Assembly: GCA_005191425.1 (NCBI GenBank) | Contig: SUPR01000026.1 | Span: 6,113 to 38,112, forward strand | From: Candidatus Helarchaeota ASGARD archaeon Hel_GB_B | Lineage (GTDB): Archaea; Asgardarchaeota; Lokiarchaeia; Helarchaeales; HEL-GB-B | Length of the DNA stretch: 32,000 bases | Direction of reading: 5' to 3' | In this document: in pieces, positions 25,439 to 25,963 of the stretch | How the letters are laid out: every line of letters begins with the position of its first letter | Position numbering within the stretch: position 1 is the stretch's first letter | Position numbers and translations under genes: made by a program | Notes under the pieces: generated by a model | Seen by the model: only the letters and a program-made list of their open reading frames with translations | The model's database searches: none | Told to the model about the DNA's origin: nothing

Positions 25439-25963
25439 GTGGTCAAAATGGAAGATAAAAATAAAAAATATGTTAATGAACCCTGGTGGAAAAAAGAATT
25501 TAAAGATGGATGGTGGAAAGAAGTTTCCTGGATACACCCCCAAGATACTGAACCATCTGGAGTTAGTTTATTCATTGATTATATGCTTGATAAGGCAATT
25601 ATCACTCCAGACGCTGTTAAAATAGCAAGTTGGATACCCCATAGGTTAATATTACTGGAAATTGTCCACCCTTTAAAAGGAACTGAGCGGTTATCTTTTA
25701 TGATCTCGCCAACTTCTGTTACTCCTGGAATCCCTGACGTAACACCTGATGTAATTGTAACTTACGATTATTATGACCTTGCTAAATTCTTAATTGGAAG
25801 AGAAAAAGATTTCACTATGTCTTTTTGGAAGGGACATTCTAGAATATATGGTAATCTTACTGCATTGATTGATTTAGCTGATATTCTTGAAGTTGCTCTC
25901 GGGAAAAAAATAGATGAAGCAAAAGAAGCTCGAATAAAAACTTGGCCTGTTGGATATCCGTAA
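25439..25963 (+). CDS. SCP2 (sterol carrier protein 2)-like lipid-binding domain protein with Trp-rich N-terminus (start probably ATG 25448)
   Basis: PDVIVTYDYYDLAKFLIG...FTMSFWKGHSRIYGNLTALIDL matches the SCP2 pattern pDv.it....d...l..G......af..Gkl.i.Gd...a..l. Confidence 0.8.
   Translation: MVKMEDKNKKYVNEPWWKKEFKDGWWKEVSWIHPQDTEPSGVSLFIDYMLDKAIITPDAVKIASWIPHRLILLEIVHPLKGTERLSFMISPTSVTPGIPDVTPDVIVTYDYYDLAKFLIGREKDFTMSFWKGHSRIYGNLTALIDLADILEVALGKKIDEAKEARIKTWPVGYP

What the first reader, a model, noticed from the sequence alone, without database searches (positions are those of the whole stretch)
25439..25963. SCP2 lipid-carrier gene as fourth cistron of the mcr-like operon
An SCP2-like domain, which binds acyl chains/sterols/long hydrophobic ligands, begins 11-20 bp after the mcrA stop on the same strand. 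I am not aware of SCP2 being a described component of mcr/acr operons. It could deliver long-chain alkanes or lipids to the widened pocket, or be a fourth subunit. The N-terminus has a doubled Trp motif (PWWKKEF...GWWKEVSW) that could dock on the complex or a membrane. Caveat: SCP2 genes are common in Lokiarchaeia, so adjacency could be chance.
Basis: partly seen in the sequence, partly recalled or inferred. Interest (0 to 1): 0.75.

Follow-up and report, generated by a model that had tools for sequence, protein, structure and literature searches.

The report
Lipid-carrier-like partner of alkane-activating enzyme
The small gene just after the MCR-like (methane/alkane-activating enzyme) genes encodes a lipid-carrier-fold (SCP2) protein from an undescribed family that travels with one branch of these enzymes in three archaeal phyla and is predicted to dock on the enzyme, so it is a testable candidate for the missing hydrocarbon carrier or fourth component.

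Summary
Confirmed. ORF 25448-25963 (alternative GTG start at 25439) is real, lies 20 bp after mcrA, and has an SCP2 fold. Pfam misses it, but every top structural match is SCP2, and a 42%-identical relative passes Pfam SCP2.

The adjacency is not chance.
- 36 of 38 informative loci of this family lie in or beside mcr clusters, in five gene orders, in Helarchaeales, Bathyarchaeota BA2 and Syntrophoarchaeia, including Ca. Alkanophaga.
- In Lokiarchaeia, the family and McrA occur in the same 7 of 161 genomes, with copy numbers matching in six.
- All 27 linked McrA form one clade (100/99). Fifteen other Acr paralogues and ANME-1-type MCRs lack the gene.
- That clade includes Alkanophaga's highly expressed split Acr.
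- A complex prediction with McrA passed (ipSAE 0.61, best control 0.00). It uses the family's C-terminal tail and an N-terminal McrA extension found only in the linked clade.

Best reading (about 0.45): a dedicated, McrA-docking carrier of a hydrophobic ligand, either alkane or alkyl-CoM. The main rival is an assembly or activation factor. Nothing biochemical is shown.

I found no paper describing the linkage. This scan noted the same linkage earlier on other genomes.

The parts
21391..22773 (+). mcrB-like gene (460 aa), first cistron
   Evidence: PF02783 and PF02241, E 1e-78. TIGR03257 383 bits, below the equivalog cut-off.
22788..23597 (+). mcrG-like gene (269 aa)
   Evidence: PF02240, E 8.5e-76.
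23604..25427 (+). mcrA-like gene (607 aa), a member of the clade that always carries the SCP2-like partner
   Evidence: PF02745 and PF02249. Falls in the 27-member linked clade, support 100/99.
23604..23738 (+). N-terminal extension of McrA (about residues 1-45) ending in the conserved motif F(L/M)PxE(K/R)xR. It is present in all 27 partner-linked McrA and absent from the other Acr and MCR sequences. Residues 37-45 are in the predicted interface.
24819..24932 (+). McrA residues 406-443, a variable helix-loop-helix with clade-specific indels; main predicted docking surface for the partner
   Evidence: Interface list; alignment; indel against tail table.
25428..25447 (+). 20-bp mcrA-to-X junction, with no T-run or hairpin terminator
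   Evidence: Sequence; scan. Junctions of 2-13 bp in relatives.
25448..25963 (+). Gene X: ACR-linked SCP2-fold protein, 171 aa (174 aa if the GTG at 25439 is used)
25448..25552 (+). N-terminal Trp-rich extension (residues 1-35: PWWKKEFKDGWWKEVSW...EP). W22, E35 and P36 are invariant across the family.
   Evidence: Alignments. Model pLDDT above 80 for residues 11-40.
25553..25927 (+). SCP2 core (residues 36-160), with family motifs PxR..L.E..HP..G.E, SP, PD..PD, YYD and G.....GN
   Evidence: Aligned range 36..161; Foldseek hits; conserved columns.
25808..25858 (+). Residues 121-137 (loop, beta4 and the GN motif), predicted to contact McrA
25928..25960 (+). C-terminal tail ARIKTWPVGYP (family motif R(P/A)xxW(P/S/T)xGxP), predicted to contact McrA 406-418
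25964..26357 (+). AT-rich 394-bp spacer after X that begins with a T5 run (aataatttttatt); likely end of the operon
   Evidence: Sequence. Reading T-runs as archaeal terminators is from general knowledge and was not tested.

Best explanation
Gene X is the fourth gene of the mcrBGA operon. It encodes a cytoplasmic SCP2-fold protein of a family dedicated to one clade of alkyl-CoM-reductase-type MCRs. The proposed mechanism has two inferred steps. First, the protein docks on the alpha subunit through its conserved C-terminal tail and beta4 loop, against a variable surface hairpin (McrA 406-443) and the clade-specific N-terminal extension of McrA. Second, it uses the SCP2 cavity to hold a poorly soluble ligand. 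That ligand would be either the incoming alkane or the detergent-like alkyl-CoM product, passed to or from the enzyme. This is the 'hydrocarbon-carrier protein' that Lemaire and Wagner (2022) postulated but did not identify. Shown here: the fold, the conserved linkage, restriction to one clade, co-diversification, and a predicted interface that passes its controls. Inferred: actual binding, the identity of the ligand, and the direction of transfer.
For: Fold: all top PDB matches are SCP2 family, and relatives pass Pfam SCP2. Linkage: 36 of 38 informative loci lie in or next to mcr clusters, in five architectures: mcrBGA-X-atwA, mcrBGA-X, mcrA-atwA-X-mcrBG, X divergent from mcrA, and mcrBG-X. 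Phyletic pattern: in Lokiarchaeia, X and McrA occur in the same 7 of 161 genomes, with copy numbers matching in six (1/1, 1/1, 4/4, 2/2, 3/3, 1/1) and 3 X against 1 McrA hit in the seventh, an 82%-complete assembly. In Syntrophoarchaeia, McrA is in 67 of 79 genomes, but X is in only 7, all of them multi-Acr genomes. Clade restriction: the 27 X-linked McrA form one clade (100/99), separate from 15 Acr paralogues without X and from ANME-1-type MCR. G240 has four McrA, none in that clade, and has no X. Co-diversification: the X tree mirrors the McrA and McrB trees, and pairwise identities correlate (r 0.86 with McrB). Selection: within the window's subclade X is the most conserved of the four proteins (70% mean identity against 54% for McrA). 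Docking: ipSAE was 0.61, 0.64 and 0.61 against a best control of 0.00. That mark was reached by 58 of 80 solved complexes and 2 of 110 mismatched pairs. The runs agree in at least 94% of contacts, and partner pLDDT is at least 82. The interface includes the McrA N-terminal extension that exists only in X-linked McrA. X proteins that lack the C-tail pair with McrA that carry a Gly-rich insertion in the contacted hairpin. Physiology: in Ca. Alkanophaga, X follows the acrBG of the split 'third cluster' Acr. Its acrA is among the top 4-19 expressed genes on C5-C14 alkanes and is related to long-chain Acrs (PMC10322722). Lemaire and Wagner proposed hydrocarbon-carrier proteins and an open, oxidation-prone cleft for this group of ACRs (PMC9118554).
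Against: No ligand, expression or binding data exist for any family member. The complex was predicted with McrA alone, so the contacted surface might be covered in the alpha2-beta2-gamma2 enzyme. Its variability and indels argue that it is exposed, but this was not checked on a hexamer. The tail-versus-insertion covariation is essentially one phylogenetic event. The family keeps many polar invariant residues (E35, H74, E80, Y108, Y109, N136, R162), which is unusual for a plain lipid pocket. X often sits next to atwA, and the two stand-alone copies sit next to other methane-metabolism genes (DUF2102/DUF2112, or a corrinoid protein with MtaA-like genes). That pattern fits a maturation role equally well. 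Some carriers (G239, G241; unnamed four-Acr genomes) may be short-chain oxidisers, so a requirement for long chains is not established.
Confidence: 0.45

Rival explanations
1. X is an assembly, maturation or activation factor, or a structural fourth subunit, of this ACR clade. It binds McrA as a scaffold or cap and carries no substrate. One possibility is that it stabilises the clade-specific extension or shields an open active-site cleft during or after A2-dependent activation.
For: X lies between mcrA and atwA in the window-type loci of relatives, and between atwA and mcrB in another architecture. The stand-alone copy L071 is followed by a 504-aa orphan and then DUF2102 and DUF2112, the same trio as in the BA2 mcr locus. 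L027 is next to DUF8179. The predicted McrA interface passes its controls. SCP2 domains also act as protein scaffolds, as in UbiJ, which is among the top structural hits. X is retained and most conserved in genomes that have lost McrC and McrD.
Against: Most loci outside Helarchaeales have no atwA nearby. X coexists with McrC and McrD in G001, G002, G003 and G005, so it does not simply replace them. It shows no sequence or fold similarity to McrC or McrD. The SCP2 fold is primarily a ligand-binding fold.
Confidence: 0.3
2. X is a carrier or chaperone for a cofactor or coenzyme of this ACR clade, not for the alkane. Candidates are a modified F430, coenzyme B (heptanoyl chain) or an alternative thiol.
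For: The family has conserved polar and charged residues inside an SCP2 core. McrD, the canonical assembly chaperone, is absent from the window's genome (93.7% complete).
Against: F430 is a polar pentacarboxylate and a poor fit for an SCP2 pocket. X has no cysteine or recognisable cofactor motif. McrD coexists with X in four Helarchaeales genomes. There is no direct evidence.
Confidence: 0.1
3. X is a generic lipid-transfer protein whose position next to mcrA is coincidental, or simply inherited without functional coupling.
For: SCP2-domain proteins are widespread. The genome has at least one other weak SCP2-like ORF (C105). Linked genes are co-inherited, so mirrored trees alone do not prove function.
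Against: The family is absent from 154 Lokiarchaeia genomes that lack McrA and present in all 7 that have it. Linkage survives at least five rearrangements and three phyla. Each Acr paralogue of the clade keeps its own cognate copy. A specific predicted interface exists.
Confidence: 0.04

Closest known systems
SCP2 / non-specific lipid-transfer proteins (Pfam PF02036; e.g. 4jgx, 1c44, 8af2, 2nbm)
   Same: The same alpha/beta fold over residues about 36-160 (Z 9.1-9.3, TM by target 0.6-0.7). The C-terminal G...GN/GD motif aligns. Relatives pass the Pfam model.
   Different: Only 11-19% identity, and the window protein itself fails the Pfam model. It has an added Trp-rich N-terminal extension and a Pro/Trp C-terminal tail, many invariant polar residues, and obligate genomic linkage to MCR-like genes.
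UbiJ / UbiT SCP2-domain accessory factors of ubiquinone biosynthesis (6h6n, 6h6o, 6h6p)
   Same: A stand-alone SCP2 domain that serves a soluble enzyme system acting on a very hydrophobic substrate. It is among the best structural hits (TM by target 0.68-0.70, Z 8.3). This is the closest analogy for how X may work.
   Different: The partner enzymes are MCR-like, with no Ubi genes nearby. There is no detectable sequence similarity. The organisms are archaeal and anaerobic.
C-terminal SCP2-like domain of alkylsulfatases (SdsA1 2cfu; YjcS 4pdx; Pfam PF14864)
   Same: An SCP2-type domain that recruits an amphiphile with an alkyl chain and a sulfur-oxyanion head, chemically similar to alkyl-CoM. 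Structural hits, and weak PF14864 hits for relatives.
   Different: It is fused to a metallo-beta-lactamase hydrolase and is not a separate protein. The similarity is weak.
McrD and McrC, accessory proteins of the canonical mcrBDCGA operon
   Same: Small proteins encoded inside mcr operons that bind MCR without being part of the alpha2-beta2-gamma2 core.
   Different: X shows no sequence match and none of its top 50 fold hits is McrD or McrC. X coexists with McrC and McrD in some genomes, and is present where they are absent.
Unannotated orthologues in Ca. Alkanophaga (MDF2955780.1, MDF2956534.1) and Bathyarchaeota BA2 (KPV61790.1, auto-named 'SCP-2 sterol transfer family protein')
   Same: The same family (33-42% identity) and the same linkage to acr genes.
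   Different: Different gene orders: after acrBG in Alkanophaga, divergent from mcrA in BA2. The window's subclade has an extra WW pair, a longer linker before the tail, and a much more divergent MCR partner.

Membership tests
SCP2 superfamily (PF02036 / IPR036527) | Five-stranded beta-sheet packed against helices (SCP2 alpha/beta fold) | tested here: met
   AF2 model. All of the top 25 Foldseek hits and the top 10 VIA hits are SCP2 family.
SCP2 superfamily (PF02036 / IPR036527) | Match to the Pfam SCP2 HMM above the gathering score | tested here: not met
   The window protein has no hit even at E<=1. Homologues P0025 (34.7 bits) and P0032 (23.5 bits) pass and are linked to the query at E 6e-30 and 3e-18, so membership is transitive and structural.
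SCP2 superfamily (PF02036 / IPR036527) | Hydrophobic cavity that binds lipid-like ligands | not testable with these tools
ACR-linked SCP2-like family (undescribed; this report) | Encoded in or next to a cluster of mcr genes whose McrA belongs to one Acr clade | tested here: met
   Window: 20 bp after mcrA. 36 of 38 informative loci. Clade support 100/99.
ACR-linked SCP2-like family (undescribed; this report) | Family motifs: N-terminal (D/G)W(W/Y)K...W...EP, HP..G.E, YYD, G.....GN, and the C-terminal R(P/A)xxWPxGxP tail | tested here: met
   All are present in the window protein.
McrD (PF02505) / McrC (PF04609) | Sequence match to the family HMM | tested here: not met
   No Pfam hit at E<=1.
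McrD (PF02505) / McrC (PF04609) | Shared fold | tested here: inconclusive
   No McrC or McrD chain appears among the listed structural matches. Absence from a list does not exclude similarity.
UbiJ / UbiT-type SCP2 accessory factor | SCP2 domain resembling UbiJ | tested here: met
   6h6n, 6h6o, 6h6p: TM by target 0.65-0.70, Z 8.3.
UbiJ / UbiT-type SCP2 accessory factor | Genomic or functional association with ubiquinone-biosynthesis enzymes | tested here: not met
   The neighbours are mcrBGA and, in relatives, atwA. No Ubi genes are present.

The most novel reading that the evidence does not exclude
X is an obligate fourth subunit of a distinct class of MCR-fold enzymes. It caps the open cleft of mid- and long-chain alkyl-CoM reductases, feeds hydrophobic substrate in, takes the amphiphilic product out, and shields the active site. 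In the window's subclade McrA is highly divergent, the genome has no McrC or McrD, and X is the most conserved component. There the X-MCR pair would perform a chemistry on lipid-like substrates that differs from canonical F430, CoM and CoB catalysis.
Probability: 0.12. Interest if true: 0.9.

Novelty: new variant of a known kind. Interest (0 to 1): 0.72.

Why it matters
Two questions about archaeal alkane oxidation are open and stated as such in the literature (PMC9118554): how water-insoluble alkanes reach the buried nickel site of alkyl-CoM reductases, and how the detergent-like alkyl-CoM products are removed and processed. A conserved, clade-specific SCP2-fold protein that is encoded with the enzyme, co-diversifies with it and is predicted to dock on its alpha subunit gives both questions a concrete target for experiment. 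Ca. Alkanophaga carries it next to its main expressed Acr and can be cultured. The protein may also be a required co-factor for heterologous expression of mid- and long-chain ACRs, and a sharper genomic marker for this Acr clade than mcrA alone. For the window's Asgard lineage, X is the best-conserved part of an otherwise fast-evolving MCR-like system.

Tried and rejected
- **Direct family searches.** Pfam and NCBIfam scans of X gave no hit.
- **PDB sequence profile.** Only a marginal SCP2 hit, E 1.1.
- **GTDB contig scan.** The search for related loci failed with the diverse alignment because it had no conserved peptide. With the close alignment it returned only four Helarchaeales-type loci.
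- **RNA evidence.** No RNA holder is listed for this stretch, so co-transcription could not be tested and read laying was not used.
- **Promoter and terminator scan.** It uses bacterial consensus patterns and is uninformative for an archaeon.
- **McrD or McrC analogue idea.** Rejected as a simple replacement, because X coexists with both in four Helarchaeales genomes.
- **Alkanophaga supplementary files.** I searched them for the X gene's coordinates and for 'sterol' or 'SCP2'. It is not listed, so its expression level could not be read.
- **Open-cleft deletion.** I looked for the loop 239-246 deletion proposed in the review as a correlate of X. The alignment window I inspected did not resolve it.
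- **BA2 490-aa orphan.** A search of the window's genome for this protein, linked to X in BA2, gave only weak partial matches to a multi-copy family of about 390 aa elsewhere. I did not pursue it.
- **Methanoliparia and Hadarchaeota.** No named members of the family appeared, but these lineages could not be targeted, so this is not evidence of absence.
- **Literature.** Seven searches combining SCP2 or sterol carrier with MCR, ACR, alkyl-CoM, Alkanophaga, Syntrophoarchaeum or Helarchaeota found nothing relevant. Subscription-only papers were not searched.

Full report
**Observation**

The window carries four tightly spaced + strand genes.
- 21391-22773, 22788-23597 and 23604-25427 encode MCR beta, gamma and alpha homologues. 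They are divergent: the alpha subunit scores 361 bits against an equivalog cut-off of 768.
- An ORF follows from 25439 (GTG) or 25448 (ATG) to 25963. Homologues start at the position of the ATG, so the protein is most likely 171 aa and begins 20 bp after the mcrA stop.
- The junction has no T-run. A T5 run and a 394-bp AT-rich spacer follow the stop of X.

**Fold**

- Pfam and NCBIfam give nothing for X, even at E<=1.
- A profile of 23 homologues finds one PDB sequence, an insect SCP2 domain, at E 1.1. The alignment falls on the classical C-terminal SCP2 motif.
- An AlphaFold2 model built on that alignment (pLDDT 71.6) has only SCP2-family chains as its 25 best Foldseek PDB matches: SCP2, SCP2-like, UbiJ-SCP2 and the alkylsulfatase C-domain (best E 1.2e-5, TM by target 0.6-0.7).
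- A Foldseek-independent search of 48,161 chains again ranks SCP2 proteins first (Z 9.3, rmsd 2.9 over 108 residues, model residues 36-161).
- An exhaustive phmmer search of 1.84 billion representatives finds 20 relatives. Of the ten I scanned, two pass Pfam SCP2's gathering score (P0025 at 34.7 bits, P0032 at 23.5 bits) and four more score just below it.

The SCP2 call is therefore right. The protein belongs to a divergent subfamily with an N-terminal Trp-rich extension (residues 1-35) and a C-terminal R(P/A)xxWPxGxP tail.

**Linkage**

I mapped McrA, McrB, McrG, AtwA and X by tblastn on every locus I could fetch, in addition to the gene calls.

Of 38 loci with enough flanking DNA, 36 have X in or beside an mcr cluster. 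The arrangements are:
- mcrBGA-X-atwA (relatives of the window);
- mcrBGA-X;
- mcrA-atwA-X-mcrB-mcrG;
- X divergent from mcrA (Bathyarchaeota BA2, G005) or from mcrBGA (G268);
- mcrB-mcrG-X with mcrA elsewhere (Ca. Alkanophaga, G238).

The two exceptions also sit in methane-metabolism contexts.
- L071: X, then a 504-aa orphan, then DUF2102 and DUF2112. The same trio lies in the BA2 mcr locus.
- L140: X next to a corrinoid protein and two MtaA-like URO-D genes. Such genes also follow atwA in L003.

**Phyletic pattern and clade restriction**

- Among 161 Lokiarchaeia species genomes, X occurs in seven, all Helarchaeales, and McrA occurs in the same seven. Copy numbers match in six (1/1, 1/1, 4/4, 2/2, 3/3, 1/1). 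The seventh, a fragmented 82%-complete assembly, has 3 X against 1 McrA hit.
- In the class that contains Alkanophaga (79 genomes), 67 have McrA but only 7 have X, all of them genomes with several divergent McrA.
- A sample of 401 Halobacteriota genomes added five more carriers. Four of them have X beside mcrBGA.
- A maximum-likelihood tree of 45 McrA places all 27 X-associated sequences in one clade (support 100/99). These are 24 adjacent McrA plus the three lone mcrA of genomes with mcrBG-X.
- Fifteen Acr paralogues from the same genomes fall in two other clades, and ANME-1-type MCRs fall outside.
- G240 has four McrA, none in that clade, and has no X.
- Caveat: the linked set was ascertained through X, and lineages such as Methanoliparia and Hadarchaeota could not be targeted.

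**Co-diversification and selection**

- The X tree reproduces the main McrA and McrB clades, so each Acr paralogue in a genome keeps its own cognate X.
- Pairwise identities correlate: r 0.86 with McrB and 0.70 with McrA and McrG on a common set. Linked genes are co-inherited, so this shows a unit of inheritance, not binding.
- Within the window's subclade X is the most conserved of the four proteins: mean identity 70%, against 54% (McrA), 60% (McrB) and 65% (McrG).

**Predicted docking**

- A two-chain prediction (McrA alignment A4 with X alignment A3) scored ipSAE 0.61, 0.64 and 0.61, with a best control of 0.00. That mark was reached by 58 of 80 solved complexes and 2 of 110 mismatched pairs. 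Runs agree in at least 94% of contacts, and partner pLDDT is at least 82. My fold and sequence searches returned no MCR-SCP2 complex, so a pass from memory seems unlikely.
- On X, the interface is residues 121-137 and the C-terminal tail 161-171. On McrA, it is residues 37-45 and 406-443.

Two independent observations fit this interface.
- McrA 37-45 lies in an N-terminal extension of about 45 residues, ending in the conserved motif F(L/M)PxE(K/R)xR. All 27 X-linked McrA have it, and the other Acr and MCR sequences lack it.
- McrA 404-430 is a variable hairpin. The five X proteins that lack the C-tail (the G231/G232 subclade) pair with McrA that carry a Gly-rich insertion there. The window's subclade has both a 5-residue longer hairpin and a longer linker before the tail. 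These are one or two phylogenetic events, so the support is weak.

Limits: McrA was modelled without the beta, gamma and alpha' subunits. The indel tolerance of the hairpin suggests it is exposed, but that was not verified.

**Context from the literature**

- In Ca. Alkanophaga, X lies 60 bp downstream of the acrG of the split acrBG pair. G164:C2 has X at 10119-10658, against mcrG at 10719-11612 in the authors' own table.
- The separately encoded acrA of that set (1908 bp, contig 6) is the 'third cluster'. It is among the top 4-19 expressed genes on C5-C14 alkanes and is related to presumed long-chain Acrs (PMC10322722).
- The authors do not list X.
- Lemaire and Wagner (PMC9118554) call alkane access 'an open exciting riddle'. 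They model an open cleft in this group of ACRs, including Helarchaeota and Lokiarchaeota, note that it would expose F430 to oxidation, and suggest 'hydrocarbon-carrier proteins' as one solution.
- Seven full-text searches found no paper linking SCP2 to MCR or ACR.

**The window's own lineage**

- The genome (93.7% complete) has one McrA and one X. It has a bona fide AtwA on another contig (678 bits). It has no McrC or McrD.
- Across Helarchaeales, the genomes with only this MCR type (G000, G004, G006) have no McrC or McrD match above the family cut-off. Those that also carry other Acr sets have both. X is therefore not a simple McrC/McrD substitute, and it persists where they are gone.
- Earlier notes of this scan report that cofactor-contact residues of this MCR are replaced. 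I did not re-test that.

**Interpretation**

- Best reading (0.45): a dedicated SCP2-fold partner that docks on McrA and handles a hydrophobic ligand, either alkane going in or amphiphilic alkyl-CoM coming out. This would work like UbiJ/UbiT for the Ubi enzymes, or like the SCP2 domain of alkylsulfatases.
- Main rival (0.30): an assembly, activation or structural factor. The frequent atwA neighbourhood and the marker-gene context of the stand-alone copies favour this.
- A cofactor or coenzyme carrier (0.10) and coincidence (0.04) are less likely.

This scan had already noted the same SCP2-ACR linkage on other genomes (e1-2072342, e1-4899652, e1-3216846). My results were obtained independently here and agree with them. 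This report adds the single-clade restriction, the cognate-copy pattern, the McrA extension and the passed interface prediction.

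Noticed in passing
window 20481-21158 (+): A 225-aa ORF with no family, upstream of mcrB, is conserved at the same position in some window-type loci (L062 59% identity, L001 37%, L061 partial) but not in others. It may be an additional lineage-specific neighbour of the operon.
   Followed up: partly
L001 3666-3893, L002 3701-3955; window 21159-21390: Relatives have a small MJ0093-like gene (PF27275) directly upstream of mcrB. The window has a 232-bp spacer there with no + strand ORF of 20 aa or more.
   Followed up: partly
window 25964-28880; own genome C157:8115-9698: In relatives atwA (MCR activation component A2) directly follows X. 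In this genome atwA lies on another contig, and X is followed by a 394-bp AT-rich spacer and an 840-aa fusion of nucleotidyltransferase, hexapeptide repeats and phosphoglucomutase/phosphomannomutase domains.
   Followed up: partly
Helarchaeales genomes G000, G004, G006 against G001, G002, G003, G005: Genomes that carry only the window-type MCR have no McrC or McrD match above the family cut-off. Genomes that also carry other Acr sets have both. This suggests the window-type enzyme is matured or activated differently.
   Followed up: partly
L003 / L004 / L013 (DATKTP010000015.1): A contig with a Helarchaeales-type mcrGA-X-atwA cluster is filed in a MAG named Candidatus Deferrimicrobium sp., a bacterium. 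It is probably a mis-binned contig.
   Followed up: no
L006 (Bathyarchaeota BA2) 606-9015: The BA2 mcrA is flanked by X on one side and a second, unrelated SCP2-like gene (184 aa) on the other. Also nearby are a B12-radical SAM gene, atwA, a 490-aa and a 152-aa orphan pair, and DUF8179-DUF2102-DUF2112.
   Followed up: partly
L071 (G001:C32) 7938-10954; L140 (G248:C3) 4167-7480: The two X copies without mcr neighbours sit next to methanogenesis-marker-like genes (a 504-aa orphan, DUF2102, DUF2112) or next to a corrinoid protein and two MtaA-like URO-D methyltransferases. A similar corrinoid and URO-D pair follows atwA in L003.
   Followed up: partly
window 15064-20304: A ubiquitin-like conjugation gene set (ThiF/E1-like gene at 18956-20053 and neighbours) lies just upstream. 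It was noted by other readers of this scan and I did not examine it.
   Followed up: no
L098-L104 (G231, G232) McrA hairpin: One Syntrophoarchaeia subclade has a Gly-rich insertion of 10-18 residues in the McrA hairpin equivalent to window residues 404-430. Its X proteins end in Gly/Met-rich tails in place of the WPxGxP motif.
   Followed up: partly
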